This document shows positions 44,428-64,000 of a stretch of 64,000 bases of DNA, piece after piece. Origin of the DNA: a virus. Its lineage: Duplodnaviria > Caudoviricetes. The notes beneath the pieces were generated by a model. That model was not told the DNA's origin. It was given only the letters and a program-made list of their open reading frames with translations, and did not search any database. Where the stretch lies: positions 1 to 64,000 of the IMG/VR virus record IMGVR_UViG_3300043391_000370; one strand, 5' to 3'. Position numbers and translations under genes: made by a program. The first letter of the stretch is position 1; each line of letters opens with the position of its first letter.

Positions 44428-44651
44428 GCCTCTGCAGGAACCTCTTCTGAAGTGACATCAACGGTTTGCTCTCCAGCAACTGGTTCGCAAACAGGAGTCG
44501 TGATTGTTGCTTCTATTTCATAATCTGGACCATGCTCTTCAATCAAAGCAGAGACCTCTTCGATTGTATGACCAGTATCGTTATTAGAATCTGCAGTTAA
44601 ATGATACAGATGCATTAAAGGCAGTGTAAGTGTTGTAGTTTCGGTTGCCAT
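44424..44651 (-). CDS. Hypothetical acidic protein
   Basis: ORF track 44424..44711; likely start is MATETT at 44651, abutting the upstream stop. Confidence 0.6.
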   Translation of the reverse strand: MATETTTLTLPLMHLYHLTADSNNDTGHTIEEVSALIEEHGPDYEIEATITTPVCEPVAGEQTVDVTSEEVPAEA

Positions 44652-47944: not shown

Positions 47945-48632
47945 ATCGTTCTCTTGGATAAAGTGCATGATAATGATCAACAGCACTATAATGAATTGAT
48001 CTTACCTTTGGTTTGTTGGTTGCTAACCACACCTCATAACAGAATCGATGCCCACCTAGTTTTTCGGTGAGACTCTCATCATAATATAAAGTTCTGTCCA
48101 ATACATTTGGAAGTGTTTTGATATAGTCGGTAGTTGCCCACCAGAAGTTTCCAGAAAAATGTGGATAGAACTCATGAGTCCAGTTCGTAGAAACTGCATC
48201 TACCTGATCATCTTCAATTTTCTGAACACAATCTTTCCACCTTTCAATTGACCAGTAGTTCATATAGTGTCTCCAGTCTTCTACAGGTGGAGAACCATAT
48301 TGTAGCATACCTTTGGAGTGAATGTAAAGGACATATCCATCATTTGTTTTTGAATATGTCTGAAGTTCTTTAAGTGTTTGCCCTTCGAAGAGATTCTCCT
48401 GTTCACCTTTTCCAGACATTACTCTAGAAGATAAAATATTTACAAAAGGAAACTTCTGTTTAATAAAGATTTTGATTTCATTTACGGCAAAATCAGGTGC
48501 GGCAAAGCACATATTAACCGTTGCCGCATCTGCCAAACCACTTGACTTTACGAGTGATAGTTGCTCTGTCACAATCTTATCCCAGGCACTATTCATGGCA
48601 CCTAGGTGATAAAATACTGCAAGTTTTTTCAT
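47931..48632 (-). CDS. Stand-alone paralog of the HxKG/GNFWW domain
   Basis: LYIHSKG...WRHYMNYW...HFSGNFWWA...RFCYEVW. Confidence 0.7.
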   Translation of the reverse strand: MKKLAVFYHLGAMNSAWDKIVTEQLSLVKSSGLADAATVNMCFAAPDFAVNEIKIFIKQKFPFVNILSSRVMSGKGEQENLFEGQTLKELQTYSKTNDGYVLYIHSKGMLQYGSPPVEDWRHYMNYWSIERWKDCVQKIEDDQVDAVSTNWTHEFYPHFSGNFWWATTDYIKTLPNVLDRTLYYDESLTEKLGGHRFCYEVWLATNKPKVRSIHYSAVDHYHALYPRERYAQL

Positions 48633-49312
48633 ACTACAATATTAGACTTAACGTGCCCCACGACTACAGTTGGATCAACAAAAACTTGATGACCATTTTG
48701 TGCGACTCTATCACACCAGTCCAGGTCTTCACCCAATGGAAGTTCATAAATGACTCCATCAACTTCCTGAACAACTTTGCCAAGACCATACCAAGGACGT
48801 TTGATACCTTCAAAGACTCCTTGCTTGACGCACATGAAACCAAGACCAACACCATAGACTGGAAATGAATCTCCGACTTGCTGAAGTAATGAGATCTCAT
48901 CTCTAGTCATCGGACGATAATCATCTTTGTTTTGATGAATCATGGCATCGGCACCTTGTGCCTCAAAATAGACACCAGAAATAATATCCTGTTCTGAACT
49001 ATAGAGTTTCAGAAAGTGCTCAGGATTCCAGACAATATCACTATCGATACAGAATAGTTTATCATAAGTGTATTGTCCTTTGCCTGGTTGAGAATTAAAG
49101 ACTTCTAACTGACGACTACCAGTAATGGTTGCTTCTCTTGCATTCGTGACAATCGAAGCATACTCATTCTGATAGTGCCAGGTCAGTCCATTTGCCTGAA
49201 GAGCCTGAATGGTTCCTAGCAAAGACTTAACATACTCCGACACCATGTTACGACCTGGTGTCGTAATGACCACATTAAAGTGTGGTTTTTGATTATTTTG
49301 ATATTTCATCAT
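48629..49312 (-). CDS. GT-A (GT2-like) glycosyltransferase
   Basis: DxD motif CIDSDIVW; GLGFM.VK.GVFE....PW; GEDL.WC; VGHVK. Confidence 0.75.
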   Translation of the reverse strand: MMKYQNNQKPHFNVVITTPGRNMVSEYVKSLLGTIQALQANGLTWHYQNEYASIVTNAREATITGSRQLEVFNSQPGKGQYTYDKLFCIDSDIVWNPEHFLKLYSSEQDIISGVYFEAQGADAMIHQNKDDYRPMTRDEISLLQQVGDSFPVYGVGLGFMCVKQGVFEGIKRPWYGLGKVVQEVDGVIYELPLGEDLDWCDRVAQNGHQVFVDPTVVVGHVKSNIVV

Positions 49313-50034
49313 AGTACGATCATTTTTTCATGTCCAACTCTAACCTTTGGATTACACCAAATCTCAAAACCATATTCCCTAAAGTCCTCACACATCGCAA
49401 CATCTTCTGAGCACATGTCCTCAAGAATAACTCCATCCTCACGAATGAGTTGAACTTTCTTTGGTGCAAACCAAGGATAAGGAATCTTCTCAAAGACACC
49501 TTTCTTCATCAGAACCCAACCAAATCCACAGTACTCAATCTTAAATGGTCCTGGTCGTCTTTGCATATCTTCAATTGTCTCAAAGTAATAAGAACCTTTG
49601 TTCATCAAAAGTTTCTTATCCATATCAACGACGACTGTGGACTGATTGGATGATGCAGTTCCATTTGATTGGACATACCAACCAGTCGAAATATCCTTAT
49701 CCATCTCAAGAAGGTCTAAGACATTCTGTGTATTGAAAACAATATCACTATCGATCCACATAATATAATCATAATTAACCTGACCTCTCCAGGGAGTCAG
49801 CATCGTTCCGGCAAAGTTATCTGCCTGCAAACAATCAGTTCGGGCAAAGTTTACCATCGAACTATAGTGTTGAGAGATGTAAAAATTGATTCCGAGTTGG
49901 TTTAAATCAAAAACCAATCGAATGAATTGTGTGAGAAATGTACCTGAATATGAACGACCCGGAAGACAGAAGGCAATTGTTTTTCCTTTAAAATCATTCT
50001 TCGGTTGATTCGAATAATTTAGCATAAATGACAA
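49309..50034 (-). CDS. GT-A (GT2-like) glycosyltransferase, paralog of 48629..49312
   Basis: WIDSDIVF; GFGWVL.KKGVFE..PYPWF; SEDV.MC; VGHEK. Confidence 0.78.
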   Translation of the reverse strand: MSFMLNYSNQPKNDFKGKTIAFCLPGRSYSGTFLTQFIRLVFDLNQLGINFYISQHYSSMVNFARTDCLQADNFAGTMLTPWRGQVNYDYIMWIDSDIVFNTQNVLDLLEMDKDISTGWYVQSNGTASSNQSTVVVDMDKKLLMNKGSYYFETIEDMQRRPGPFKIEYCGFGWVLMKKGVFEKIPYPWFAPKKVQLIREDGVILEDMCSEDVAMCEDFREYGFEIWCNPKVRVGHEKMIVL

Positions 50035-50070: not shown

Positions 50071-53000
50071 TTACCACCAGGTAATTTTAACATATCCATC
50101 CCCACCATCTCCACCGACACCAAAGGTTTGATTTTCATCTGCATATGCACCACCACCTCCACCACCTCCACGATCCCCATTACCACCATCACCGGCAATT
50201 CCTATTGAAGTTATAGAAGATGAAGATAGGGTTCCAGAAACACCAGCTGCGGCATAACCAGCAGCACCATAGGTAATTGAATTCAAAAGGTTTGTTGTGG
50301 TGGATGTTCTTGATGTCCAGGTGATCGCATCCGTGGAGAGTCTGATTACACCACCAGCACCGACTGCATAATAGATGCTGTTCAAATAACTTAATCTAAA
50401 AATTGCAGAAGTACCAAAACCTGTTGTTCTTTGTTCCCAAATGATTGTATCTGTGGATGTTCTAAGCAATCCAGCATTACCACCGGCAAAGAATACTGTA
50501 CCATAACTTACGGCATTAATGTTTGTTGTACCAAATCCTGTGGTTCTTAGTACCCAAGAAATCGTATCAGTCGAAGTGATAATAGTATTGGTCACACCGA
50601 AATAATCACTTGTTGCCGCAACATAATAATTACTATCATAAGTGAGTGCAGTAATGGACTGAACATTTGTCATAACCGTGGTTCTTAATGTCCAGGAAGC
50701 AGTATCTGCAGAAACGGCAAAGTATGCACCATTCACACCATAAGATGATAGAAGTGTCTGAGTCGATGCAGTTAGAGTTCCTGCTGCACCGGCAAGTAGG
50801 TAGTTATTATTACCATAGACTGAAGTAGAAATTGCCGTTGTACCAAATCCAGAAGTTCTTGCAGTCCATACAATACCATCAGTCGAAGTTCTACTGATTG
50901 CACTATTACCGGAAGCAACATATATTCCATCACCATAAACATAAATGATACTGTTGACATTTATCGTACCAAATCCAGTAGTTCTTGTTGTCCAGGCAAT
51001 TGCATCTGTTGAAGTTCTTAATGTTGCAGCACCACCAGCAATATAGATTGTTCCATAAGTTAATGCAAGTATACTAGAAGTACCGAATCCAGTAGTTCTT
51101 GAAGTCCAGACAATTGAGTCCGTGGATGTTCCAAGCAATCCACCATTACCACCGGCAACAAAAAGAGTTCCGGCAGTAAAGGCATTAATTTGAGTTGCAC
51201 CGAATCCTGATGTTCTTTCAGACCAGGTGATATTATCAGTAGAAGCAATCAAACTTCTAGCATTTCCAAGATAGTTGGTGCCTGTTGCAAGATTATAACT
51301 TAGTTGCGTGGTTGTAGAAGTTGTTATGGTTCCACCATAACCACCGGCAACAAGAATATTATTTGCAAAAAGTAATTGAGCACGAACGATTGATGTTCCA
51401 AAACCAGGGTTTCTTAAAGTCCAGGTGATTGCATCTGTTGAAATATTTAATCTTCCACCATCACCACCAATAACATAAAGATTATTTGCATAAAGTAAAG
51501 ACCAAATGCTTCCCCCAGTAAATCCAGAAGTTCTTAATGTCCAGGTGATTGCATCTGTTGAAGTGCCTAAAGATGGACCACCACCAATACTAGCAGCAAC
51601 ATAAAGACCATTCCCATAAACTAAAGAATAAATGATTGTTGTACCAAATCCAGAAGTTCTTTGTGTCCAGGTGATTGCATCTGTTGAAGTGTTTAAGATT
51701 GCACTATCACCAGCAGCAACATAAAGATTATTTCCATAGACTACAGAAAAAATATATGAACTACCAAAACCAGAGCAAGTTCTTAATGTCCAGGTAAGTG
51801 AGTCTGTGGATGTTGACAGATTTCCAGACTGATTTCCAGTTACATACTGATTATTTGCATAAATGATTGACCACGTTTGCGTGGCAGGTGTGGTTCGGTA
51901 TTGCCAGACAATTCCATCAGTTGAAGTATTTAAGAATCCACCATCACCACTTAGGAAATAAGTATTATTTGCATAAGTTGAAGTGATAAAATTATCAACC
52001 ATACCATTAGAAGTTCTTTGAGTCCAGGTGATAGTATCTGTTGAAGTGACTATAGTTCCACCACCACCAGCAGCAACATAAAGACCATTCCCATAAGTTA
52101 GAGCATAAATGACTGATGAACCAAATCCAGAGGTTCTTTGAGTCCAAGTACTGAATGGAACTAAAGTACCACCATTTACAGCAGTAAGAGTTTGAATATT
52201 AAGTGCGGTACTTCTAACAGTCCAGGTGATTGTATCGGTTGAAGCATTCAAAGTAACACCAGTACCAAAAGAACCAAGAATACTTTGAGGGGTTGAAATC
52301 ATTCTTCCCGTAATACCACTCATCACAAAAGTCTGATTGCCATAAACTGAAGCAGTAATTGCACTTGTACCAAATCCTGATGTTCTAAGTGTCCAAACAA
52401 TAGCATCCGTTGAAACTAATTGAGTACCCGCAACACCACCAGAAGCATAAACATTATTATTATAAACTAGAGTGTTGATGACTGATACACCAAATCCAGA
52501 AGTCTGTAGTGCCCAGTTAATTGTATCAGTTGAAGTTGTTAAGAAAGGTTGACCGATATAGTTTGTACCGGCAGCAACATAAAGAGATTCACTTGTGGTT
52601 AATGTCGTAATCGTTTGAGTATTAAGTCCAGTACTTCTGAGTGTCCAGGTGATTGTATCAGTCGAAGAACTTAGATATGCACCATTACCAAAGGAAGAAA
52701 GAACAGTATCATTTGAAGTAGTCAGAGTTCCACTTGCACCACCGGCAAAATAAATGTTATTTCCAAAAGTCAGAGCATTAATTTGTGATGTACCAAATCC
52801 AGAAGTTCTGAGTATCCAGGTTATTGCATTTGTAGAAGTTGCCGATACACCATTTACACCAACTGCCGTAAAGACTGATTGCCCATAAGTTAATCCAAGA
52901 ATATTGTTTGCACCAAATCCCGAAGTTCTTAATGTCCAGACAACTGAATCTGTAGAAGATGATACCAATCCACCATTACCACCGGCAAGATAAAGTGTTG

Positions 53001-56000
53001 CTCCATAAGAAATTGCACGAATATCTGTTGTACCAAGTCCAGAAGTTTGTACAATCCAACTGGTTGAATCACGAGAATATGTAATTGTTCCAGAGGCACC
53101 ACCAATAAGATAGAGTCCATCAACAGTTGAATATAATCCGGCATAAATTGTTGATGTACCAAAACCAGAAGTTTGTGCAGTCCAGGTGATTGTATCGGTA
53201 GAAGATGTAAGTGTTCCTGCATCACCACCAGCAATATAGATTCCTAAATCACTTGAGTAGGTTGTTTCATAAATGATTGAAGTACCAAAACCAGAGGTTC
53301 TCAATTCCCAAGTAATTCTATCCGTTGAAGTGGTTAATGTTCCAGCAGCACCACCGGCAACAAAAGATGTTCCATAGGTCAAGGCATTAATTAAAGTCGT
53401 ACCAAAACCAGAAGTTCTTAATATCCAGTTAATGGAATCAGTTGAAGTATTGATGATTCCAGCATCCCCACCGGCAATATAAAAATTATTTCCATAGGTC
53501 AAAGCATTAATTGAAGATGTACCAAAACCAGTAGTGGTTCTTGTAGTCCAAAGAGTTGAAAGTGTGGCACCGGCAGCAACATAAAGATTATTAGTATAAC
53601 CAAAAGCATTAATTGCTAGTGTCGTTCCAGAGGTTCTTTGAGTCCAAACAATATTATTAGTAGAGACTTGTAGATTTCCATTTACCGCAGAAAGGTAATT
53701 GGTTCCTGTTAGGAATGAATAAGATCCACCAGAACCTAGTGTTGTAATTTTATCCAGATTAAGAAATCCAGTAGTTCTTAATGTCCAGTTAATCGCATCA
53801 GTCGAAGCACTTATTACTCCACCATCACCAAGATTAGCAAGTGTGGTTTGTGTTGTAGATGTTAATGTGCCAGCATCACCACCATTTAGATAAGTATTGT
53901 TTCCATAAACAAGTGCTCGTATTGTGGTGCCACCGAATCCTGATGTTCTCAAAGTCCAGGTGATTGCATCTGTAGAACTGATATTTGCACCAGCAACACC
54001 AGAAGCAACATAAACTCCACTATTATGGGCAAGACCAACGAAACTTTGAATTACACCAGCAGTTCTTAATGTCCAGGCAATTGCATCTGTTGAAGTTAAA
54101 ATTGTTCCACTTACACCAGAGACAACATAAACACCAGCATAAAGAGATTGATATAATGCATTTGCGGTTCCTGATGTTCTTGCAGTCCAGGTAATTGCAT
54201 CGGTAGAAGTTTGAATCACACCGGCATTACGTGTTAAAAGATAAGTCGGTGTCGGTAAACTAGAATAATTAAGTGACTGGATAGAATTAGTAACATCACC
54301 AGATGTTCTTATAGTCCAACGAATAGCATCAGTAGAAGTAAATACTGTTACCGAACTAGTAAAAACATAAGTGGATATTGGAGAATCACCATAAGCAATT
54401 GCCACAATACTAAGAGTTGTAGCAGTTCTTTGTGTCCAGGCAATAGTATCTGTAGAAGTTCTTAAAAGTCCAGAACCACCAGATAATACATAAGGTTCAT
54501 TACCTGTAGTTGCAGAACCAGATTTTCCGGCAACATACAGAAGTCCATTACCACCAGAAGATTGACCAATAGTGGCTGCTGTTCCAGAAGTTCTAGAAGT
54601 CCAGGCAATACCATCTGTAGATACTACCAATCTTCCACCAGTACCAGCAGCAAGGAAGTTAGTACCATCATATATTGATGTATAAATTGCAGAAGTACCA
54701 AATCCAGAAGTTCTTTGATCCCAAATAATATTTGCACCACCAATAAGAATCTCACCATTAAAGAATGTTGCAGTATTAATTATAGATGGACTGGTTGATG
54801 TGGTTCTTGTAGTCCAGGCAATTGCATCTGTAGAAGTTCTGGTTGTAATATTACTGGCAGCAAGGTAAATATTATTTCCAAAGGCAAGTGTAGAAATTGT
54901 GGATGTACCGAATCCAGCAGTTCTGAGGAACCAAATTGTAGAAACAGAAGCACCTCCGGCAACGAACTCATTATTAAAGAATGTCATCGCACCAATTGCA
55001 GTCGTTCCGAATCCAGAGGTTCTAATTGCCCAGGAAATTGTATCGGTAGAAGCAGTTAAGAGTCCACCAGCACCGGCAGCAGCATAAAAATTATTACCAA
55101 ATGCAAGTGTGGCAATTGCAGAAGTACCAAATCCTGATGTTCTTTGATTCCACATCGTGGTGATTGTTGCACCACCGGCAAGATAAAGACCGTTATTATA
55201 TCCTAGTGCCGTGATTGGTTGGTTATTGGCAATACCAGGATTTCTTGATGTCCAGTTAATCGTATCCGTAGAGGCAATTATAAAACCTTCGTTTATATAA
55301 TTAGTACCACCGGCAAGATAAAAAGTATTATCAGAGAATGTTGTAGTAATGGTTTGAGTATTGATTCCTGTGGTTCTAAGTGTCCAATTGATCGTATCAG
55401 TAGAGATACTAAAGTGAGCACCATTACCAAACGAAGAAACTTGTGCATCTAAAGCAGTAGCAATTGTTCCACCACTACCAGCAGCATAGAAAGATCCAGA
55501 ATTATATAATAACTGGCCGATTGTGGATCCACCAAATCCAGAAGTCCTAGTGACCCAAGTAATTCCATCTGTTGATGTCGTAACTGTATTTGTTCCAGAA
55601 TTAACTTGACCTCCAGCAACATATACACCATTACCATAACTCAAAGTATTAATAAAGACTGTACCAAATCCTGCTGTTCTTAATGTCCAGACAATTGTAT
55701 TTGTTGAAGTGTTTAGAACTCCACCTTGCCCACCCGCAAGATAAAGATTATTTGCATAAAGTAAAGAGTTAATGTTGGAAGTACCAAATCCAGAAGAAGT
55801 TCTTGAAACCCAAGAAATTGAATCGGTCGAAACTCTAATTGTTCCACCAGCACCACTAGCAAGATAAGGATTTGGTTGCCCAGAAGCATAAATTAATCCG
55901 TTTCCAGCAGCAAAATTACCAATACCAGATGTACCAAATCCAGAAGTTCTTAAAGTCCATGCAATTGTATCTGTTGAAGTGTTTATAATTCCAGAAGTAG

Positions 56001-58251
56001 CACCAAGAAAATAATTAGTACCATCAAACATAAAAGTGTAAATAGAGGATGCACTAACTGCAGCACTTCTTAAAGTCCAGGTTATTGTATCCGTAGAAGC
56101 AATTAAAATTCCCAAAGTACCCCCGGCAAGATAGATTCCATTACCATATCCTAGTGAAAGAATACCTGATGTACCAAAACCTGAAATGGTTGTTCTTTGA
56201 GTCCAGGTGATTGAGTCTGTAGATGCTGACAGAGTTCCGGTTATTCCACCAGCAACATAAAGATTGTTGCCAAATGTAAATGCCTGGATAATGGTAGAAC
56301 CAAATCCTGATGTTCTTTGAGTCCAAAGAGTTGATACTGCAACACCAGCAGCATAATAAGTCGTACCCTTATATCCAAGAGCATTAATTGTTTGAGTAGT
56401 ACCAAAAGTTCTCAAATTCCAAGTTGATAGTCCAGATGAGAATGCTCCACCACCGGCACCACCACTACCGATGCTTCCAGTATAAGAACTTAGAATACTT
56501 GCTGCTCCATTTGTTCCGGCATTTGAACCACCAGTAACAGTATAACTATTTCCATAATAGTAAGAGGTAACACTACCACCACTATTCGTATTATAAGCAC
56601 CACCGGCACCACCAGTCGGTTGATAAGGTACTGATGGTGATGTTGCATTAATTCCAGTTCCAAGTACAGAAAGACCGGCACCACCAGCAAGACCGGCAGT
56701 TGTATAGAATGGATTTACAGTAGATGCAGTTGCCGCACCTGCTGGACCTGCCGTGACTGCCGTATCAGAAGCACCAGTACCACCGGCAGCACTTAAGGTA
56801 TAAGTAAGTGTCCCGTCAGTAATATGAGGTATTCCAGTCCAGGTTAAAGTTGTTGCGGAACCTGATGATGTACTGTTAACAACATTAAGATTACCAGTAG
56901 TGCCTACAAGATAAAGACCATTTAAGTATTCAGTTGTCCATGCAATACCATAATTCTGAACAAGTGCGGTTCTTTGTGTCCAAACTATCGTATCGGTAGA
57001 AGTCGCAACAAATCCAGTTGGTGCCGATGTAACTCCAATATTAATAGCAGCACCACCAGAAGCAACATAAACACCATTACCATAAGTTATAAACCATGTC
57101 GATGATTTACCAAACCCAGAAGTTCTATAAGTCCAGGTGATTGCATCTGTAGAAGTGGTTAGTACTCCAGCAGAACCACCGACAACATAAAGATTATTCG
57201 CAAACTTAATTGCTTTTACATCAGTATAACCAAATCCAGAAGTTCTTTGTGTCCAGGTGATTGCATCTGTTGAAGTGTTTAGAACTCCACCATTACCAAC
57301 GGCAACAAAAGATGTTCCATAAGCAAAAGTATTAATAGTTGTTGTACCAAAACCAGAAGTTCTTTGTGTCCAGGTAATCGAGTCCGTTGAAGTATTTAAG
57401 ATTCCACTATCACCACCGACAACATAGGTATTGTTTGCATAAAATGAGGTATAAATGTTTGATGTACCAAAACCAGATGAAGTTCTTAAAGTCCAGGCAA
57501 TTGCATCTGTTGAAGTTTGAATCAATCCAGAAAATCCACCAATTACAAAAATATTATTCCCATAAATGATAGACCTACTAACAGTAGTTGGTGCCGCAGA
57601 AGTTCTTAAAGTCCAAATAATTGTATCTGGAGAAGTATATATTGATACAGAAAAGGAAACATAAACACCATTACCATATGCTAATCCAAAAACAGTATTA
57701 TTAGTGGCTCTTGGTCTCCATGTAATACCATCAGTACTTACAGATAATCCACGATTTCCTGCAAGACCACGAGTACCAGGTGTTACGGTAATCGTAGAAG
57801 CACCGGCAAGTTCTGGACGACGAATGATCCAAGAAGCATAGGCACCAGAACCTCCACCGGCAGCGGCACCTAATGTACCTGTTGGTCTTCCTGCTGATCC
57901 CGCACCACCTGCACCAATTGCCTCAATATAAAGAGTCGATGCACTTTGAGGAACATAAAAGGTTTGTGCAAATGGTTGTGTAAACTCCTGAGCACCTTTA
58001 TAAGTTACTGCATTACTTGCCGATGAAGTTAATGGTTTCCAACTGGTTGAACTACTTGAATATGGTGATGTGAGTAAGGTTCCAGTACCACCACCAGAGA
58101 TTACATAATTATCCGATGTCTTTGTGGAGTATAATAAAGATGAAGTATTCGAAGTTCTGAGTGTCCAGGTGATTGAATCCGTCGAACTAAGTACTGCACC
58201 AGTTAATGGACTTGTCGCAATATAAGTATTATTGATGTAATTGATCTTCAT
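50071..58251 (-). CDS. Giant virion-associated repeat protein (2726 aa): Gly-rich scaffold plus 56 STDxxxWTxRT (Asp-box/Ycf48-like) repeats
   Basis: Repeat unit STD(A/T)I(T/A)WTxRTSGFGxxxIxxxxYGNNxYVAGG; Gly-rich domain ending GGDGYVKITWW. Confidence 0.85.
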   Translation of the reverse strand: MKINYINNTYIATSPLTGAVLSSTDSITWTLRTSNTSSLLYSTKTSDNYVISGGGTGTLLTSPYSSSSTSWKPLTSSASNAVTYKGAQEFTQPFAQTFYVPQSASTLYIEAIGAGGAGSAGRPTGTLGAAAGGGSGAYASWIIRRPELAGASTITVTPGTRGLAGNRGLSVSTDGITWRPRATNNTVFGLAYGNGVYVSFSVSIYTSPDTIIWTLRTSAAPTTVSRSIIYGNNIFVIGGFSGLIQTSTDAIAWTLRTSSGFGTSNIYTSFYANNTYVVGGDSGILNTSTDSITWTQRTSGFGTTTINTFAYGTSFVAVGNGGVLNTSTDAITWTQRTSGFGYTDVKAIKFANNLYVVGGSAGVLTTSTDAITWTYRTSGFGKSSTWFITYGNGVYVASGGAAINIGVTSAPTGFVATSTDTIVWTQRTALVQNYGIAWTTEYLNGLYLVGTTGNLNVVNSTSSGSATTLTWTGIPHITDGTLTYTLSAAGGTGASDTAVTAGPAGAATASTVNPFYTTAGLAGGAGLSVLGTGINATSPSVPYQPTGGAGGAYNTNSGGSVTSYYYGNSYTVTGGSNAGTNGAASILSSYTGSIGSGGAGGGAFSSGLSTWNLRTFGTTQTINALGYKGTTYYAAGVAVSTLWTQRTSGFGSTIIQAFTFGNNLYVAGGITGTLSASTDSITWTQRTTISGFGTSGILSLGYGNGIYLAGGTLGILIASTDTITWTLRSAAVSASSIYTFMFDGTNYFLGATSGIINTSTDTIAWTLRTSGFGTSGIGNFAAGNGLIYASGQPNPYLASGAGGTIRVSTDSISWVSRTSSGFGTSNINSLLYANNLYLAGGQGGVLNTSTNTIVWTLRTAGFGTVFINTLSYGNGVYVAGGQVNSGTNTVTTSTDGITWVTRTSGFGGSTIGQLLYNSGSFYAAGSGGTIATALDAQVSSFGNGAHFSISTDTINWTLRTTGINTQTITTTFSDNTFYLAGGTNYINEGFIIASTDTINWTSRNPGIANNQPITALGYNNGLYLAGGATITTMWNQRTSGFGTSAIATLAFGNNFYAAAGAGGLLTASTDTISWAIRTSGFGTTAIGAMTFFNNEFVAGGASVSTIWFLRTAGFGTSTISTLAFGNNIYLAASNITTRTSTDAIAWTTRTTSTSPSIINTATFFNGEILIGGANIIWDQRTSGFGTSAIYTSIYDGTNFLAAGTGGRLVVSTDGIAWTSRTSGTAATIGQSSGGNGLLYVAGKSGSATTGNEPYVLSGGSGLLRTSTDTIAWTQRTATTLSIVAIAYGDSPISTYVFTSSVTVFTSTDAIRWTIRTSGDVTNSIQSLNYSSLPTPTYLLTRNAGVIQTSTDAITWTARTSGTANALYQSLYAGVYVVSGVSGTILTSTDAIAWTLRTAGVIQSFVGLAHNSGVYVASGVAGANISSTDAITWTLRTSGFGGTTIRALVYGNNTYLNGGDAGTLTSTTQTTLANLGDGGVISASTDAINWTLRTTGFLNLDKITTLGSGGSYSFLTGTNYLSAVNGNLQVSTNNIVWTQRTSGTTLAINAFGYTNNLYVAAGATLSTLWTTRTTTGFGTSSINALTYGNNFYIAGGDAGIINTSTDSINWILRTSGFGTTLINALTYGTSFVAGGAAGTLTTSTDRITWELRTSGFGTSIIYETTYSSDLGIYIAGGDAGTLTSSTDTITWTAQTSGFGTSTIYAGLYSTVDGLYLIGGASGTITYSRDSTSWIVQTSGLGTTDIRAISYGATLYLAGGNGGLVSSSTDSVVWTLRTSGFGANNILGLTYGQSVFTAVGVNGVSATSTNAITWILRTSGFGTSQINALTFGNNIYFAGGASGTLTTSNDTVLSSFGNGAYLSSSTDTITWTLRSTGLNTQTITTLTTSESLYVAAGTNYIGQPFLTTSTDTINWALQTSGFGVSVINTLVYNNNVYASGGVAGTQLVSTDAIVWTLRTSGFGTSAITASVYGNQTFVMSGITGRMISTPQSILGSFGTGVTLNASTDTITWTVRSTALNIQTLTAVNGGTLVPFSTWTQRTSGFGSSVIYALTYGNGLYVAAGGGGTIVTSTDTITWTQRTSNGMVDNFITSTYANNTYFLSGDGGFLNTSTDGIVWQYRTTPATQTWSIIYANNQYVTGNQSGNLSTSTDSLTWTLRTCSGFGSSYIFSVVYGNNLYVAAGDSAILNTSTDAITWTQRTSGFGTTIIYSLVYGNGLYVAASIGGGPSLGTSTDAITWTLRTSGFTGGSIWSLLYANNLYVIGGDGGRLNISTDAITWTLRNPGFGTSIVRAQLLFANNILVAGGYGGTITTSTTTQLSYNLATGTNYLGNARSLIASTDNITWSERTSGFGATQINAFTAGTLFVAGGNGGLLGTSTDSIVWTSRTTGFGTSSILALTYGTIYIAGGAATLRTSTDAIAWTTRTTGFGTINVNSIIYVYGDGIYVASGNSAISRTSTDGIVWTARTSGFGTTAISTSVYGNNNYLLAGAAGTLTASTQTLLSSYGVNGAYFAVSADTASWTLRTTVMTNVQSITALTYDSNYYVAATSDYFGVTNTIITSTDTISWVLRTTGFGTTNINAVSYGTVFFAGGNAGLLRTSTDTIIWEQRTTGFGTSAIFRLSYLNSIYYAVGAGGVIRLSTDAITWTSRTSTTTNLLNSITYGAAGYAAAGVSGTLSSSSITSIGIAGDGGNGDRGGGGGGGAYADENQTFGVGGDGGDGYVKITWW

Positions 58252-58304
58252 CTATTATACACCTTTCTGTTGGAAATTATAATTCAACGGACACATTTTA
58301 ATTC

Positions 58305-58311
58305 TATTTAG
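58305..58311 (-). promoter_or_regulatory. Late-type promoter CTAAATA between the two giant genes
   Basis: Within the 83-nt intergenic gap; RBS-like AAAGGTG precedes the ATG at 58251. Confidence 0.5.
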
Positions 58312-58334
58312 ATTGATTACAAAATGGTAATATA

Positions 58335-61300
58335 CTAATATCCAGAAGTTCTCTGAGTCCAGGTAATTGTATCTGTTGAGACTGCAAAGGAACTACCTGT
58401 ATCACTTGCAATATAAAGACTATCCTTACCAACAAAGGTAATATCATCCACAGAAGAAGTTCCAAATCCAGAAGTTCTTAAGTACCAAGTAACAGTATCA
58501 ATTGAAGTAGCAATTGTTCCAGAATCACCAACAATAAAATAAGTTGCATTATAATATTTAACACCATTAATTATTGTTCCCATAGTAATTCCTGTTGCTC
58601 TTGTAGTCCAGATAATTGAATCCGTCGATGCCGCAATTATTCCAGGTCTTCTATCATAATCTGAGAACGATGCCAGATAATATTGACTTCCCAAAATAAC
58701 ATGATCTAATTGCTGTACGTTCACAGAAGAAGTTCTTAATCTCCAGGAAATTGCATCGGTGGAAACAATAATAGTGGCACCATCTCCACGATTCGTTAGA
58801 GAACTATAAGTTCCGGTAGCAACATAACCAAATGATGAAACCTGAACATAAGTATCATTATTATAAGCAATACCATTAATTATATCAGTAATACCAGAGG
58901 TTCTGGCAATCCAGATTACACCATCAGTTGAAGCAGAGTTACCACCACCACCAGAAGTTACATAAAGATTATTGGCATATAATACATTTCGAGTACCACC
59001 CGTAGCAACAGTTCTTAAAGTCCAGGTGATTGAATCTGTGGATGTTTGAATAATTCCAGCACCAGATGGAGAAATGTGTCCAGCAACATAAAGATTTGTA
59101 CCATTATAAGTTATACCATTAATTGGATATCCTGGTTGCCTATAAGCAGATGTTCTTAATACCCAAGAAACGGCATTTGTGGAAACTGCAATTGATGTAT
59201 TGCCATCAAAATCACTAAATCCACCGACAAACTTCAGACCATCATAGAAAAAGGTATTTGCATCTTGAACATTTGATACTGTGGTTCTAACAAACCAGTT
59301 AATGGTGTCTGTAGATGCCGATAAGAATGCACCATTACCTGGATTAGTGAGTGATGCATAGGTTGCCGTACCCAGAATACCAAGCTCTCCAGAAAAAATA
59401 AATTGATTATTTGCATAACTTAAAGTAAAAATATTTCGGGTTACTCCAGAAGTTCTAAGAGACCAAGTAATTGTGTCTGTTGAGATTGCTGTGCCACCTG
59501 TAGATGCACTAACAACATAAAGTCCATTATCATAAGCAAATGAATAGATAGTTGTTGAACCAAATCCAGAAGTTCTTAGTGTCCAGGTGATTGCATCTGT
59601 TGAAGTGTTTAAAGTTCCACCACCGGCACCACCAAGAATATAAGTACCGTTCTGATACAACATTCCATAGATTGTTGCACCAGTACCTGATATGCCAGCA
59701 GTTCTTAACGTCCAGGTGATAGTATCTGTCGATGTTATAATAGGTGGAATTTCACCAGATCTCCCACCACCACCAGCAACATAAAGACCATTACCATAGA
59801 TTAATCCTCGACTATCTCCAGTATTAGTAAGTCCGGTTGTTCTTAGTGACCAGAAAATTGCATTTGTCGAAACTGAAATTACACAATCATTTGCAACACC
59901 AAGAGATTCTCCAGAAACACCAGAACCAACATAAAGACCATTAACATAGATTAGTGCTCGATAAAATGCGGTTGTTCCAGAAGTTCTTTGTGTCCAGGCA
60001 ATTGCATTTGTTGAAGACGTAATGGTTCCACCCCGACCATTCAAAACATAAGTACCGGCATTATAAACAAACCCATGTATTGCACTCGTACCAAATCCAG
60101 AAGTTCTAGCAGTCCAGGTGATTGTATCCGTAGAAGCAATTAAGAGTCCACTATTGCCACCAGTAACGTAAAAACCATTCTGATAAATTACTGTTCCCAT
60201 TCCACCAAATCCAGAAGTTCTTAAAGTCCAGGCAACAGTAGGATTCAAACCACCAATCAAATAAAATCCACCACCAAAATAAACAGTATTTACAGTCTTA
60301 CCATAAGACCTAGAAGTTCTTAAAATCCAGGTGATATTATCAGTCGAAGCAGAAGTCACACCAGGAATTGAGAAATAATCAGTTCCGGAAGCAACATAAT
60401 AAGAACTCGAAGCAGTTAGTTTATCAACCTGAACCATTCCTGATGATGTGGTTCTTGTAGTCCAGGAGACTGCATCAGTAGAAACATTCAGTCTTGCACC
60501 ATTACCTAAGGTTGTTAAGATACTTGCAGATGCTGATTGAAGTCTTCCTGTGGTTCCAGAAGTTATGAAAGTATTATTACCGGCAGCAGCACGATGCATT
60601 AAAGTAACAGATTGACTTATAGTAGATGTTCTTGATATCCAAATGATTCCATCAGTTGATGTTCTTGTAGAACCTCCAGCAGTAGCAAGCACAAAAATAT
60701 TATTTGCATATACTAAATCTCTAGATATTGATGTTCCTAGTGACCCAGTTCTTAATGTCCAAGTGATTGTATCTGTGGAAGTTTGTATAATGCCATTATT
60801 ATCACTCGAAACAGTAACATAAAGATTTGAACCATTTGTACTAAGAACTGCAGTATAATTTGATGCTGCAGCAGTTCTTGCAGTCCAGTTAATCGTATCT
60901 GTGGAAACTGCAAGTGTTGTATTGGAATTATAATTACTCAGAGCAGCAAGATAAAGTGAAGAACTGGAAGTGATCGCATCTACTTGCTGAACATTCGGTA
61001 TTGAAGTTCTTATGTCCCAGGTGATATTATCAGTAGAGGTTGATAGAAGTGCTCCGTTTCCTAGATTTGTGAGTTGTGAGTATGTTGCCGTGGTTAGAGT
61101 TCCATTATCACCACCAGCAACATAAGTATTATTGCCAAAGGTTAATCCAATTATACGAGTTGAACCAAATCCAGAAGTTCTTTGTGTCCAAGTGATAGTA
61201 TCTGTTGAAATGATTAATGTTCCACTATTACCTGAAGCAACATAAAGATTATTTCCATAAAGAAACTCATATAAATTAACTGCAGTTCCAGAAGTTCTAA

Positions 61301-63479
61301 AAGTCCAGGCAATTGTATCTGTTGAAGTGGTTATAAGTCCACCATTACCACCGGCAACATAAGTATTGTTTCCATAAACTAATGATTGAATTGCATTCGT
61401 ACCAAATCCAGAAGTTCTAAATGTCCAAGTGATTGCATCTGAGGATGTTGCTAAGGTTCCAACAACACCACCAGCAACATAAAAATTATTACCAAATGTA
61501 AGTGTTTGAATATTAGTATTGCCAAATCCTGAAGTTCTATAAGTCCAAGTGATTGCATCTGTTGAAGTGGTTATAGTTCCACCCGTACCACCAGCAACAT
61601 AAAGGTTATTTGCATAAGTAATTTCAAATATACTACTTGTACCAAATCCAGAAGTTCTCTGCTCCCAAGTAATAGTATCTGTTGAAGTCGATAATACATT
61701 TGCACCAAATGCATTAGCAACATAAAGATTATTTCCATATGTTATTGCAAAAATTTCAGTTGTACCAAATCCAGAAGTTCTCAAAATCCAACTGATTGAA
61801 TCAGTCGAAGTACTTATGAGACCATTTCTTCCATTAATTGTATAAAAATTATTTGCAAAAAGGATATTACTTATTTGTTCTGCAGTTCCAGAAGTTCTTA
61901 AAGTCCAACTTACAACAAGACTTAAACCACCAACCAAATATCTACTATCATCGGCATAAAGTGAAGTAATCGCATTTCCACTCACACCAGCAGTTCTTAA
62001 AGTCCAAATGATATTATTTGTAGATACAGAAATAATACCTCCCACACCAGCATAAGTACAATTTGATGCAAGATAATATGAGGAATTAGAAGCAAAATAA
62101 TCGACTTGTGCAATACCTGATGTTGTGGTTCTTGTAGTCCAGGATACTGCATCGGTAGAAGCAGTTAGAAGAGCACCATTATCAAGAAGTCCTGATGCCG
62201 TGGTTAAAGTTCCACCACTACCACCAGCAACATAAAGATTGTTTACATAACGTAACATACTAATAAGTGATGTACCAAATCCAGAAGTTCTATAAGTCCA
62301 GGTGATTGCATCTGTTGAAGTGGTTAATCTTCCATTATCACCACCAGCAACATAAGTATTGTTTGCATAAAGTAAAGATAGAATATGTGTAGAACCAAAT
62401 CCAGAAGTTCTTAAAGTCCAGGCAATTGTATCTGTTGAAGTGTTTAGAGTTCCACCAGTACCACCTACAATATAAGTATTGTTTGCATAAAGTACGGAAC
62501 GAATCTGTGATGCACCAAATCCAGAAGTTCTTTGAGTCCAAGTGATTGAATCAGTTGAAGTGTTTAGAACTCCACTAAACCCACCAGCAACATAAAGATT
62601 ATTTGCATAAATTAAAGGAATAATAACTGTTGCACCAAATCCAGAAGTTCTTAGTGTCCAGGCAATTGAGTCTGTCGAAACTGATATTCCACCATCACCT
62701 GCAATATAATAATTACTGTTTGCATAAATTAATGATGCAATAGTTACCGAAACACCAGAAGTTCTTAGTGTCCAGGCAATTGAGTCTGTTGAAGTGTTTA
62801 GAGTTCCACCAGCACCAGCAGTAACATAAAAATTATTTTCAAAAATAATTGCTCTTATGGTACTTACACCAAATCCAGAAGTTCTTTGAGTCCAATTATT
62901 CAAAGAATCATAAAGACCACCAGCAAGAAAATATCCCTGACCAAAGACTACATCATTAATATCAACACTACCAAACCCAGAAGTTCTTAATGTCCAGGTA
63001 ATTGTATCAGTATATCCACCGGCAACAAAGTATCCATTTCCATAGGTTACGTCATTAACTGTAGTAGTTCCAAATCCTGAAGTTCTTAAAGTCCAACTTA
63101 AACTTCTATCCGTGTCACCACCGGCAAGGTAAATATTATTCCCATAAACAACATCATACAATATCGCATTTGAAGCAGACGTTCTTAAAGTCCAAGATAC
63201 TGCATCCGTAGAAGTATTTAATATTCCTGTACTACTTCCTCCAACGGCAACATAAAGATTATTGGAATAAAGGAGTCCGTTAATATTATCTGTACCAAAA
63301 CCAGCAGTTCTTAAAATCCAGACAACTCCTGGAGATGGATCAACTTGCAAAAAGGTATTAGCAGCTGCCGTTGTAACTGATGCAAATGAGGCATTATCTA
63401 CATACTCTTTGTTTACAACATCAGTAGAATTGGATACTACACTTACATCAATAACCTTATTACTGTCTAATGTTGCCAT
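58335..63479 (-). CDS. Giant repeat protein (1714 aa) with 40 WTxRT repeats
   Basis: Same repeat family as 50071..58251; N-terminus has a DVVNKEYVD fibre-type motif. Confidence 0.85.
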   Translation of the reverse strand: MATLDSNKVIDVSVVSNSTDVVNKEYVDNASFASVTTAAANTFLQVDPSPGVVWILRTAGFGTDNINGLLYSNNLYVAVGGSSTGILNTSTDAVSWTLRTSASNAILYDVVYGNNIYLAGGDTDRSLSWTLRTSGFGTTTVNDVTYGNGYFVAGGYTDTITWTLRTSGFGSVDINDVVFGQGYFLAGGLYDSLNNWTQRTSGFGVSTIRAIIFENNFYVTAGAGGTLNTSTDSIAWTLRTSGVSVTIASLIYANSNYYIAGDGGISVSTDSIAWTLRTSGFGATVIIPLIYANNLYVAGGFSGVLNTSTDSITWTQRTSGFGASQIRSVLYANNTYIVGGTGGTLNTSTDTIAWTLRTSGFGSTHILSLLYANNTYVAGGDNGRLTTSTDAITWTYRTSGFGTSLISMLRYVNNLYVAGGSGGTLTTASGLLDNGALLTASTDAVSWTTRTTTSGIAQVDYFASNSSYYLASNCTYAGVGGIISVSTNNIIWTLRTAGVSGNAITSLYADDSRYLVGGLSLVVSWTLRTSGTAEQISNILFANNFYTINGRNGLISTSTDSISWILRTSGFGTTEIFAITYGNNLYVANAFGANVLSTSTDTITWEQRTSGFGTSSIFEITYANNLYVAGGTGGTITTSTDAITWTYRTSGFGNTNIQTLTFGNNFYVAGGVVGTLATSSDAITWTFRTSGFGTNAIQSLVYGNNTYVAGGNGGLITTSTDTIAWTFRTSGTAVNLYEFLYGNNLYVASGNSGTLIISTDTITWTQRTSGFGSTRIIGLTFGNNTYVAGGDNGTLTTATYSQLTNLGNGALLSTSTDNITWDIRTSIPNVQQVDAITSSSSLYLAALSNYNSNTTLAVSTDTINWTARTAAASNYTAVLSTNGSNLYVTVSSDNNGIIQTSTDTITWTLRTGSLGTSISRDLVYANNIFVLATAGGSTRTSTDGIIWISRTSTISQSVTLMHRAAAGNNTFITSGTTGRLQSASASILTTLGNGARLNVSTDAVSWTTRTTSSGMVQVDKLTASSSYYVASGTDYFSIPGVTSASTDNITWILRTSRSYGKTVNTVYFGGGFYLIGGLNPTVAWTLRTSGFGGMGTVIYQNGFYVTGGNSGLLIASTDTITWTARTSGFGTSAIHGFVYNAGTYVLNGRGGTITSSTNAIAWTQRTSGTTAFYRALIYVNGLYVGSGVSGESLGVANDCVISVSTNAIFWSLRTTGLTNTGDSRGLIYGNGLYVAGGGGRSGEIPPIITSTDTITWTLRTAGISGTGATIYGMLYQNGTYILGGAGGGTLNTSTDAITWTLRTSGFGSTTIYSFAYDNGLYVVSASTGGTAISTDTITWSLRTSGVTRNIFTLSYANNQFIFSGELGILGTATYASLTNPGNGAFLSASTDTINWFVRTTVSNVQDANTFFYDGLKFVGGFSDFDGNTSIAVSTNAVSWVLRTSAYRQPGYPINGITYNGTNLYVAGHISPSGAGIIQTSTDSITWTLRTVATGGTRNVLYANNLYVTSGGGGNSASTDGVIWIARTSGITDIINGIAYNNDTYVQVSSFGYVATGTYSSLTNRGDGATIIVSTDAISWRLRTSSVNVQQLDHVILGSQYYLASFSDYDRRPGIIAASTDSIIWTTRATGITMGTIINGVKYYNATYFIVGDSGTIATSIDTVTWYLRTSGFGTSSVDDITFVGKDSLYIASDTGSSFAVSTDTITWTQRTSGY

Positions 63480-63515: not shown

Positions 63516-64000
63516 CTACCACCAAGTAATTTTCACATAACCATCACCACCATTACCACCATTACCAAAAGTACTTCCAATCGAAGCACCACCACCTCCA
63601 CCACCACCTCTGATACCATTACCACCAGTTGCGGCAATTGATACACTTGCTCCTGCACCACCACCACCAAAACCATAAGGAAGTCCAGTAATTGCAGTTG
63701 CACTACTTCCATTTGTTCCTAATGATGACCCACCAGATACTGATGTCGTATTTCCATAAAAATTAATTGTTCCACCGGCACCACCAGATGTTGTTGTGAT
63801 TCCTGCACCAGATCCACCACCGGTTGCCTGATATTGATTGGAAGATGTAAGTGCAGTATATCCAATACCACCTGTATTATTTGCACCCGAGAGTCCGATG
63901 GTAGTGTAATAATAATTGGTGATTGCAGTTTGTGCGATACCTGGTGTTTGTCCAGGACTACCAGATGCAGTTAAATTATAAGTTCCTCCGGGGCCAGTCC
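63516..64000 (-). CDS. 3' end of a Gly-rich paralog (5' end outside the window) ending GGDGYVKITWW
   Basis: Hand-translated 161 codons: TGPGGTYNLTASG...GFGGGGAGASVSIAATGGNGIRGGGGGGG...GDGYVKITWW*. Confidence 0.85.
   Translation of the reverse strand, partial: TGPGGTYNLTASGSPGQTPGIAQTAITNYYYTTIGLSGANNTGGIGYTALTSSNQYQATGGGSGAGITTTSGGAGGTINFYGNTTSVSGGSSLGTNGSSATAITGLPYGFGGGGAGASVSIAATGGNGIRGGGGGGGASIGSTFGNGGNGGDGYVKITWW

What the first reader, a model, noticed from the sequence alone, without database searches (positions are those of the whole stretch)
58335..63479. Second nested-propeller tree (1714 aa) with a self-similar branching pattern
There are five entries (DTDRSLSW ~63095, YTDTITW ~62995, LYDSLNNW ~62893, LSLVVSW ~61906, LNPTVAW ~60230) and five returns (SGLLDNGA ~62185, TYSQLTNLGNGA ~61070, SASILTTLGNGA ~60515, TYASLTNPGNGA ~59350, TYSSLTNRGDGA ~58795). 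They balance as ( ( ( ) ( ) ) ( ) ). Hand counts of repeats are 7, 7, 6, 7 and 7 for the inner domains, with one 6-repeat exception. The two hub domains have the same plan, with insertions after repeat 1 and repeat 3. The outer hub of the 2726-aa protein uses the same plan, which suggests growth by recursive duplication of a hub module into its own loops.
Basis: partly seen in the sequence, partly recalled or inferred. Interest (0 to 1): 0.85.

Follow-up and report, generated by a model that had tools for sequence, protein, structure and literature searches.

The report
Nested beta-propeller tree in cyanophage fibre
This 1714-residue cyanophage protein is built from 40 short repeats that parse into six propeller-shaped domains inserted inside one another, and related phages carry the same gene with 3 to 14 such propellers, so it is a rare natural case of a protein that grows by recursion.

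Summary
It has five shortened "entry" blades and five "return" linkers at the stated places. They balance as (((..)(..))(..)) and give domains of 7, 7, 6, 7 and 7 blades. Only 12 of 166,824 balanced random placements do as well.

The genome is a T4-like cyanomyovirus fragment, and the gene lies in its fibre module.

AlphaFold2 folds the leaf domains confidently; D4 matches complete 7-bladed propellers (Z 32). It did not fold the hubs, so hub closure rests on sequence and comparative evidence:
- The hubs D1 and D2 match only in register.
- Blades that follow a return form one clade across both genes.
- An 88%-identical pair of orthologues differs by exactly a 14-blade and a 7-blade block.
- Syntenic orthologues carry 3, 4, 5, 7, 8, 10, 11, 13 or 14 propellers.
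- One relative is a 13-propeller Russian doll whose distant left and right halves share a duplication history.

Relatives have one unsplit ORF (3328-4380 aa). Here the gene is split inside a blade by a unique 83-nt spacer.

First readers of this scan noted the same ideas on this DNA; none had been checked.

The parts
63345..63479 (-). N-terminal 45 aa (MATLDSNKV...VNKEYVD), the fibre-type head shared with the upstream paralogues and with orthologues
   Evidence: 67% identical to the G001 orthologue
63120..63344 (-). D0 (outermost propeller) blades 1-2; blade 2 is a 33-aa pre-entry blade
   Evidence: segmentation; parse
63021..63119 (-). Entry 1 (DTDRSLSW) and hub D1 blade 1
   Evidence: junction conserved in G001
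62919..63020 (-). Entry 2 (YTDTITW) and hub D2 blade 1
62205..62918 (-). Entry 3 (LYDSLNNW) and leaf propeller D3, 6 blades (7 in the G001 orthologue)
   Evidence: pLDDT 80-95; 44-aa one-blade gap after residue 330
62166..62204 (-). Return linker R1 (TTASGLLDNGALL), back into D2
61932..62165 (-). Hub D2 blades 2 (post-return type) and 3 (pre-entry, 33 aa)
   Evidence: AlphaFold2 pLDDT about 30 here
61095..61931 (-). Entry 4 (LSLVVSW) and leaf propeller D4, 7 blades
   Evidence: VIA-align Z 32.1, rmsd 2.2 over 284 residues to the 7-bladed virginiamycin B lyase 2z2o
61044..61094 (-). Return linker R2 (TTATYSQLTNLGNGALL), back into D2
60525..61043 (-). Hub D2 blades 4-7
   Evidence: pLDDT 60-80
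60489..60524 (-). Return linker R3 (SILTTLGNGARL), D2 back into D1
60255..60488 (-). Hub D1 blades 2 (post-return type) and 3 (pre-entry)
59370..60254 (-). Entry 5 (LNPTVAW) and leaf propeller D5, 7 blades
59322..59369 (-). Return linker R4 (TATYASLTNPGNGAFL), back into D1
58806..59321 (-). Hub D1 blades 4-7
58770..58805 (-). Return linker R5 (SSLTNRGDGATI), D1 back into D0
58338..58769 (-). D0 blades 3-5 and the first half of blade 6; the ORF stops after ...STDTITWTQRTSGY
58252..58334 (-). Unique 83-nt spacer with stops in all frames, an AAGGTG ribosome-binding site 8 nt before the ATG of the next gene; it replaces about 5 codons of the unsplit orthologue
58066..58251 (-). First 62 aa of the 2726-aa protein: second half of D0 blade 6, and blade 7 through its third strand; the blade's closing strand is inferred to be P0001's N-terminal D strand
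50071..58065 (-). Rest of the 2726-aa protein: glycine-rich scaffold carrying eight more 7-bladed propellers nested up to four deep (Pa; H1 > Pc, H2 > H3 > Pf, Pg; Ph)

Best explanation
P0001 is the N-terminal half of a giant, fast-evolving tail-fibre-type protein of a T4-like cyanophage.

Architecture. Its 40 Asp-box-like blades (four strands, about 40 aa) form six beta-propellers arranged as a tree.
- The outermost propeller, D0, is interrupted in the B-C turn of its blade 2 by hub D1.
- D1 is interrupted after blades 1 and 3 by hub D2 and leaf D5.
- D2 has the same plan and carries leaves D3 and D4.
- At an entry the chain leaves after strand B (..YxAGG) and starts the closing D strand of the inserted propeller.
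- After the last A-B-C of the insert, a 12-17 aa return linker (T-Y-x-x-L-T-N-x-G-N-G-A) leads back into strand C of the host blade.

Split. D0 is completed by the first 62 residues of the next protein (2726 aa). That protein continues the same ancestral gene with a glycine-rich scaffold and eight more propellers. In this genome the two halves would have to assemble in trans through the split blade (inferred).

Function (inferred). The propellers are displayed as a multivalent, probably carbohydrate-binding, host-recognition array.

Growth (inferred). Whole propeller cassettes are gained, lost and re-inserted by non-allelic homologous recombination between blades. An inner cassette can be replaced by a copy of an enclosing hub module, and that step produces the self-similar plan.
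For: Shown:
- The ORF and its repeats.
- Balanced entries and returns that give domains of 6-7 blades, with 12 of 166,824 random placements doing as well.
- Entries lack exactly strand C, and returns restore it (DSSP).
- Leaf propellers D3 and D4 fold with pLDDT 80-95. The D4 region matches complete 7-bladed propellers at Z 32.1, rmsd 2.2 over 284 aa.
- The discontinuous pieces of D1 and D2 match only in register: 44% against 28-33% here, and 58% against 35-43% in G001.
- Post-return blades form one clade.
- All ten junctions are conserved in position in the 3589-aa orthologue. The return linkers are the most conserved part, 80% against 43-70% for the domains.
- Whole-module indels occur between proteins that are 88% identical.
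- Syntenic orthologues carry 3 to 14 propellers, and their blade totals are multiples of 7.
- In G003, 12 hubs have complementary left and right blade counts (4+3, 2+5 ten times, 1+6). The same two hub pairs are the most similar in both the left-piece and the right-piece identity matrices (Mantel r 0.455, 91 of 20,000 permutations).

Context:
- Tail, baseplate and fibre PHROGs in the window.
- Nearest isolate is Synechococcus phage S-SRM01.
- BFVD structural neighbours include phage tail fibre, BNR and baseplate wedge proteins.
- Relatives have unsplit ORFs.
Against: - AlphaFold2 did not fold the hubs. D2 blades 2-3 have pLDDT about 30, blades 4-7 have 60-80, and pTM is 0.43.
- A second job on a simpler one-level nest from a sister phage failed entirely, with mean pLDDT 29.9.
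- There are no proteomic, binding or expression data.
- The return junctions are not better conserved than ordinary blades at the DNA level within this gene (56% against 64%). They therefore do not look like present-day recombination handles.
- Spliced hubs show no specific orthology to the simple propellers of un-nested orthologues.
- The split could in principle be an assembly error or a recent lesion.
Confidence: 0.72

Rival explanations
1. Beads on a string. The repeats fold as consecutive, non-nested propellers or open beta-solenoid arcs. The entries are merely degenerate three-stranded blades and the returns are ordinary inter-domain linkers.
For: AlphaFold2 gave no confident hub. Foldseek's best PDB matches for the whole model are tandem-propeller proteins.
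Against: - Cutting at the return linkers gives runs of 10, 9, 4, 9, 4 and 4 blades, not closed 7-blade rings.
- The nested parse gives 7 nearly everywhere, in this protein and in more than ten orthologues.
- Discontinuous hub pieces are co-duplicated in register.
- A 14-blade hub-plus-insert block behaves as one indel.
Confidence: 0.1
2. The nested architecture is right, but the tree did not grow by inserting a hub module into itself in one step. Instead, separate tandem duplications occurred on the two sides of an inner cassette: a short 5' unit (blade plus entry) and a long 3' unit (return plus remaining blades). Selection kept only the balanced combinations.
For: - Algebraically, M[X:=M] equals (5' piece)x2, X, (3' piece)x2.
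- P0001 starts with three tandem 33-34 aa blade-plus-entry units at residues 88-187.
- G003 has near-identical tandem 5-blade 3' units and similar tandem 2-blade 5' units.
- Leaf blades share exact DNA matches of up to 35 nt, enough for unequal crossing-over.
Against: - It needs two independent events, with an unbalanced and probably misfolding intermediate.
- In G003 a two-hub block was duplicated with the same partners on both sides, which is easier to obtain in one double-crossover event.
Confidence: 0.3
3. P0001 is a decaying or artefactual fragment. The gene was broken by a recent insertion or an assembly error, and only one half, or neither, is functional.
For: - Relatives carry a single ORF of 3328, 3589 or 4380 aa.
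- P0001 ends in mid-blade.
- The spacer is unique to this contig.
- Read-level checks were not possible.
Against: - Both halves are uninterrupted ORFs of 1714 and 2726 codons in a 37% G+C genome.
- The spacer supplies a stop, a ribosome-binding site at proper spacing and an ATG exactly at the start of the next strand, and it replaces only about 5 codons.
- All junctions and blade counts in P0001 are intact.
Confidence: 0.12

Closest known systems
Si3 insertion of the cyanobacterial RNA polymerase beta' subunit (recursively nested sandwich-barrel hybrid motif domains)
   Same: Domains of one fold are inserted into each other repeatedly, with hosts that are themselves inserts and with bifurcating nodes. 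It is described as eight domains in a six-level recursive architecture (PMC13114784; structure in PMC10895346).
   Different: - Its units are small (about 70-80 aa) barrel-hybrid motifs in a conserved enzyme. Here they are 7-bladed propellers of about 290 aa in a hypervariable phage fibre.
- Here the insert is as large as the host or far larger (a 1450-aa tree inside a 290-aa propeller), contrary to the size rule reported in PMC13114784.
- Depth reaches 13 propellers in a relative.
- Copy number varies between close relatives.
BNR/Asp-box type seven-bladed beta-propellers, for example GH74 xyloglucanases (6p2k, 5fkq, 6mgj), and Pfam DUF6242
   Same: Blades of four strands and about 40 aa, with an S-x-D...W hairpin between strands C and D. 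Foldseek matches to GH74 tandem propellers. Pfam DUF6242 is matched above its cut-off. BFVD neighbours include a protein named BNR repeat domain protein, of Synechococcus phage S-CBWM1.
   Different: The motif is STDxIxW, one residue shorter and without the Gly of SxDxGxTW. No Pfam BNR match was found. The known proteins have tandem propellers, not nested ones. No catalytic residues are implied.
Virginiamycin B lyase (2z2o) and designed symmetric propellers (v13WRAP-T 7big; Ika8/Tako8 6g6o, 6g6m)
   Same: The best structural match of leaf D4 is 2z2o (Z 32.1, rmsd 2.2, 284 aa). The only PDB sequence matches are Ika8 and Tako8 (E 5e-8 to 1e-5). The blades are highly regular and close to a consensus.
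   Different: This is fold-level resemblance only (8-12% identity for the structural matches). Those proteins are single domains.
Glycine-rich receptor-binding tips of phage fibres (Pam3 gp24, Salmonella phage S16 gp38)
   Same: The partner protein and the upstream paralogues end in a glycine-rich domain with GGGGGGG runs. In Pam3 and S16 the variable loops between glycine-rich motifs bind the receptor (PMC9608196). Here whole propellers sit in loops of the glycine-rich scaffold.
   Different: Homology is not shown. There is no PDB sequence match, and Pfam Gly_rich_2 is below its cut-off in the orthologue tested. P0001 itself carries no glycine-rich domain.
Integrin alpha I-domain insertion into a seven-bladed propeller
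   Same: A whole domain is inserted into a loop of a 7-bladed propeller that stays folded (PMC12422189).
   Different: The insert has a different fold (VWA), there is a single level, and the position is fixed.

Membership tests
Pfam DUF6242 (PF19755), propeller-like domain | Match to the family HMM above the curated gathering score | tested here: met
   P0001 scores E 4.2e-10 and 40.3 bits against a cut-off of 29, with 5 stretches. Leaf D4 alone scores 26.4 bits, below the cut-off.
BNR/Asp-box repeat propellers | Asp-box S-x-D-x-G-x-T-W hairpin between the third and fourth strands of each blade; match to the Pfam BNR models | tested here: not met
   The motif is STDxIxW (no Gly, one residue shorter) and lies between strands C and D in the model. 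No BNR family was reported by hmmscan at E up to 1. The protein works like an Asp-box propeller but is not a member by this test.
Seven-bladed beta-propeller fold | Seven four-stranded antiparallel blades closed into a ring | tested here: met
   Met for leaf D4: model residues 335-652 align to complete 7-bladed propellers at Z 28-32 and rmsd 2.1-2.8, with pLDDT 80-95. The hubs were not resolved.
Nested (recursive) domain insertion, as in RNA polymerase Si3 | The host domain is discontinuous in sequence and folds around an inserted domain of the same fold, over at least two levels | tested here: inconclusive
   Sequence and comparative evidence are met: balanced parse into 7s, in-register co-duplication of discontinuous pieces and whole-branch indels. 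Three-dimensional closure of the hosts was not obtained.
Phage tail fibre / receptor-binding protein | Encoded in the tail or fibre module; N-terminal attachment region; match to known fibre families; presence in virions | tested here: inconclusive
   Supporting: the gene lies among fibre and baseplate genes; the N-terminal motif is shared with paralogues and orthologues; BFVD neighbours are named tail fibre or baseplate wedge. Missing: the only PHROG match has unknown function (phrog_22737, E 3e-4), and there are no proteomic data.
Pfam Gly_rich_2 (PF21722) fibre proteins | Glycine-rich domain matched above the cut-off | tested here: not met
   P0001 has no such domain. P0002 gives no Pfam match because the domain is interrupted. 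Orthologue L022 scores 20.6 bits against a cut-off of 24.3. Several database homologues carry a precomputed PF21722 hit.

The most novel reading that the evidence does not exclude
A family of cyanophage fibre proteins is a natural recursive protein.
- Seven-bladed propellers are inserted into the B-C turns of other propellers to depths of 4 here and about 13 in a relative. That is deeper than the six-level record reported for RNA polymerase Si3.
- The tree is rebuilt on short evolutionary time scales (3 to 14 propellers among phages whose neighbouring gene is 82-93% identical) by recombination that can substitute a module into itself.
- In this genome one propeller is assembled from two polypeptides.
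Probability: 0.55. Interest if true: 0.9.

Novelty: new variant of a known kind. Interest (0 to 1): 0.8.

Why it matters
- If the hubs close as inferred, these proteins show that a large (about 290-aa), topologically demanding fold can host inserts many times its own size, repeatedly. That contradicts the reported rule that inserts are smaller than their hosts.
- They give a natural series (3 to 14 propellers, both bushy and caterpillar-shaped trees) for studying the folding of discontinuous domains, and a template for designing branched multivalent binders.
- For phage biology, they point to a way of changing fibre valency and reach by whole-domain cassettes rather than by point mutation, in abundant cyanophages.
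- The split blade offers a natural test of propeller complementation in trans.

Tried and rejected
The planned test was whether P0001 40-121, P0001 1558-1714 and P0002 1-78 assemble into one propeller. It could not be run.
- AlphaFold2 job 1 (D2 module, residues 154-997, 50-row alignment A2) folded the leaves but not hub blades 2-3.
- AlphaFold2 job 2 (one-level nest of sister phage L010, residues 1-650, 21 colinear orthologues, A3) gave mean pLDDT 29.9 and is uninformative.
Foldseek and VIA-align listed only the best-scoring leaf domain, so hub contacts could not be read.
- The first partial-row paralogue alignment, A1, piled onto D4 and was not used. A local MAFFT run timed out.
- Global alignments between distant orthologues (54-59% identity) slip between blades and split the indels, so they were not used as evidence.
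- Spliced hubs against the simple propellers of L022 gave no orthology signal. Near-consensus leaf propellers score best against everything.
- Direct DNA repeats are only 60-81% identical, so no recent duplication is seen in this gene.
- Return junctions are not specially conserved at the DNA level. The idea that they serve as recombination handles was dropped in favour of recombination between blades.
- The glycine-rich scaffold gave no PDB sequence match and no phage-record match.
- Literature searches found no description of nested propellers in phage fibres in the held library.
Full report
**What is there.** window:58335-63479(-) is an intact ORF of 1714 aa (P0001). It is followed after 83 nt by a 2726-aa ORF (P0002, 50071-58251) on the same strand.

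The window is part of an 81.7-kb viral contig. Almost all genes lie on one strand. PHROGs identify baseplate hub, tail and tail-fibre proteins. psbA lies just beyond the window. The nearest isolates are T4-like cyanomyoviruses: Synechococcus phage S-SRM01 at 61.5% in a tail protein, then S-SKS1 and P-SSM2.

Upstream of P0001 are two paralogues of 900 and 600 aa. They carry two and one simple 7-blade propellers inside a glycine-rich scaffold that ends in GDGYVKITWW. Downstream is a glycosyltransferase/methyltransferase cluster.

**The observation.** Segmenting P0001 on its conserved Trp gives 40 units of about 40 aa with consensus STDxIxWTxRTSGFG...Y.NN.YVAGG..G.L.

Secondary structure from the AlphaFold2 model places the four strands of a blade as follows:
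- strand A: I..L.Y
- strand B: .YVAGG
- strand C: .L.TS
- strand D: W..RT

The STD...W hairpin lies between strands C and D, as in Asp-box propellers.

Five units are short (33-34 aa). They end at ..AGG and run straight into x-x-D-x-x-x-x-W, so exactly strand C is missing. Five units are long (53-59 aa).

A stack parse gives this tree:
- D3: residues 188-425, 6 blades
- D4: 517-795, 7 blades
- D2: 154-187 | 439-516 | 813-985, 7 blades
- D5: 1076-1370, 7 blades
- D1: 121-153 | 998-1075 | 1387-1558, 7 blades
- D0: 46-120 | 1571-1714, 6 Trp anchors

Among one million random placements of five entries and five returns, 166,824 were balanced. Only 12 of those gave all closed domains of 6-7 blades. 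Cutting only at the returns would give runs of 10, 9, 4, 9, 4 and 4 blades.

P0002 parses in the same way into eight 7-blade propellers nested inside two loops of the glycine-rich scaffold. Its outer hub H1 has the same plan as D1 and D2, with insertions after blades 1 and 3.

**Structure prediction.** An AlphaFold2 run on the D2 module (residues 154-997, alignment A2) gave mean pLDDT 71.8 and pTM 0.43.
- Leaves D3 and D4 reached pLDDT 80-95.
- Hub blades 4-7 reached 60-80.
- Hub blades 2-3 reached about 30.

The D4 region superposes on complete 7-bladed propellers (virginiamycin B lyase, Z 32.1, rmsd 2.2 over 284 residues). Foldseek finds multi-propeller proteins in the PDB, and phage tail fibre, BNR, DUF6242 and baseplate-wedge proteins in BFVD.

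The leaves are therefore supported as closed propellers, while closure of the hubs is not shown structurally.

**Comparative evidence for nesting.**

1. Hubs D1 and D2, each assembled from three separated pieces, are 44% identical blade for blade in register and 28-33% in the other six registers. In the orthologue G001 the figures are 58% and 35-43%. Their second inserts, D4 and D5, are also best in register (58% against 50-53%).

2. In a tree of 94 blades, eight of the nine blades that follow a return, from both genes, form one clade with support 94. That is 3 label changes against 5-9 in 1000 shuffles. D1.b2 and D2.b2 are sisters. Pre-entry blades do not cluster.

3. I searched IMG/VR with the adjacent glycosyltransferase and obtained 25 loci that are 82-93% identical in that gene. 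The gene directly upstream of it is hypervariable.

| Locus | Length (aa) | Propellers | Note |
|---|---|---|---|
| L022 | 1185 | 3 | all simple |
| L013 | 1526 | 4 | |
| L019 | 1860 | 5 | first is a hub with the 1(7)2 3(7)4-7 plan |
| L010 | 2409 | 7 | |
| L005 | 2719 | 8 | |
| G002 | 3328 | 10 | |
| G001 | 3589 | 11 | |
| G003 | 4380 | 13 | 4226 aa read |
| this window | 1714 + 2726 | 14 | 97 blades |

4. L013 and L010 are 88% identical over 1526 aligned residues. They differ by exactly two gaps: 580 aa with 14 Trp anchors (a hub plus its insert) and 301 aa with 7 anchors.

5. G001 carries the same tree as P0001. All ten junctions are at homologous positions, and the return linkers are the most conserved part (80% identity, against 43-70% for the domains). 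The only large gap is one 44-aa blade that the window's D3 lacks, which explains the 6-blade exception.

6. G003 is a caterpillar-shaped nest of twelve hubs around one leaf. The pieces to the left of the leaf have 4, then 2 (ten times), then 1 blades. The matching pieces to the right have 3, then 5 (ten times), then 6, so every hub sums to 7. Under the nested pairing, the two most similar hub pairs are the same in the left-piece and right-piece identity matrices: hub3-hub5 at 0.66 and 0.71, and hub4-hub6 at 0.59 and 0.67. Those pieces lie more than 2500 residues apart. Mantel r is 0.455, reached by 91 of 20,000 permutations, and the reversed pairing gives -0.13.

**The split.** P0001 ends ...STDTITWTQRTSGY, after strand D of D0 blade 6. 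P0002 begins MKINYINNTYIA, which is strands A and B of that blade. It then adds the A, B and C strands of blade 7 before the linker into the glycine-rich scaffold.

G001, G002 and G003 have single open frames across this point. The window instead has a unique 83-nt spacer. It contains stops, an AAGGTG site 8 nt before the ATG, and replaces about five codons. The reads could not be checked.

Both halves are long intact ORFs. I therefore read this as a real split whose products must reassemble through the split blade, but a lesion or an assembly error is not excluded.

**How it most likely works.**
- Shown: the repeat anatomy, the balanced parse, the leaf fold, the co-duplication of hub pieces, the whole-branch variation among relatives, and the fibre-module context.
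- Inferred: hubs close as 7-bladed rings with inserts emerging from B-C turns on one face.
- Inferred: the array serves host recognition, probably by multivalent carbohydrate binding. The near-consensus conservation of SGFG, W and RT in nearly every leaf blade suggests one repeated site rather than many specificities.
- Inferred: growth is by non-allelic recombination between blades, which share exact DNA matches of up to 35 nt.

Self-similarity (D1 = the plan of D2 with D2 in place of a leaf) can arise in two ways. One is a single double crossover that replaces an inner cassette with a copy of an enclosing module. The other is a pair of tandem duplications, one on each side of the cassette. 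The data do not decide between them. The DNA repeats in this gene are old, at 60-81% identity.

**Comparison with what is known.**
- The closest analogue in kind is the Si3 insertion of the cyanobacterial RNA polymerase beta' subunit. It has eight hybrid-motif domains in a six-level recursive insertion (PMC13114784, PMC10895346).
- The same survey reports that inserts are consistently smaller than their hosts. Here they are equal or far larger.
- The blades resemble BNR/Asp-box propellers and match Pfam DUF6242 above its cut-off, but not the Pfam BNR models.
- The glycine-rich scaffold of the partner protein recalls the receptor-binding tips of Pam3 gp24 and S16 gp38 (PMC9608196). No homology could be shown.
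- I found no paper in the held library that describes nested propellers in phage fibres.

**Earlier notes and verdict.** First-reader notes from this scan on the same DNA propose the same tree, the split and the scaffold. They were unchecked, and I reached the split reading independently.

The remaining gap is a structural demonstration of hub closure.

Noticed in passing
L038 (G003:C1:84800-98600), ORF of 4226 aa read out of a 4380-aa frame: A relative's orthologue is a linear Russian doll. Twelve hub propellers and one leaf sit inside the last loop of the glycine-rich scaffold, and every hub sums to 7 blades from complementary left and right pieces. The outer hubs contain near-identical tandem 5-blade units, which suggests recent expansion.
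   Followed up: yes
window 58252-58334: A unique 83-nt spacer splits the ancestral gene inside a blade. It carries CTAAATAG and TATAAT-like strings and a ribosome-binding site. Its last 14 nt (AAAGGTGTATAATA) recur once, at genome position 77204-77217.
   Followed up: partly
window 51250-52250 (P0002 residues about 2002-2334): One propeller (Ph) appears to be inserted at a different site: between strands A and B of a post-return blade of hub H2, not in a B-C turn. Its return lacks the usual G-N-G-A linker.
   Followed up: no
window 62480-62490 (after P0001 residue 330): Leaf D3 lacks exactly one 44-aa blade that is present in the G001 orthologue. The window therefore has a 6-bladed leaf where the relative has 7.
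   Followed up: yes
window 44651-50034: Six co-oriented genes lie directly downstream: two phrog_1574/glycosyltransferase-like genes, a methyltransferase fusion, a GT4-like gene and two genes without matches. The first of them is 82-93% identical in 25 IMG/VR contigs, while the fibre gene next to it varies from 1185 to 4380 aa.
   Followed up: partly
window 63516-63998 and genome 63516-68021: Two upstream paralogues (600 and 900 aa) carry one and two simple 7-blade propellers in the same glycine-rich scaffold. The linker that returns into the scaffold (..SYYQTGGVGGG..) resembles the hub return linker (..TYSQLTNLGNGA..). This hints that the first propeller-in-propeller cassette carried scaffold residues with it.
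   Followed up: partly
genome 78053-79841 (outside the window): psbA-like reading frames are interrupted by an ORF with a LAGLIDADG-type motif. This is probably an intron-encoded homing endonuclease in the phage psbA.
   Followed up: no
window 5362-11337 and 13731-19586: Two further giant ORFs (1991 and 1951 aa). The first matches tail-fibre PHROGs strongly (phrog_529). The second has only one weak match.
   Followed up: no
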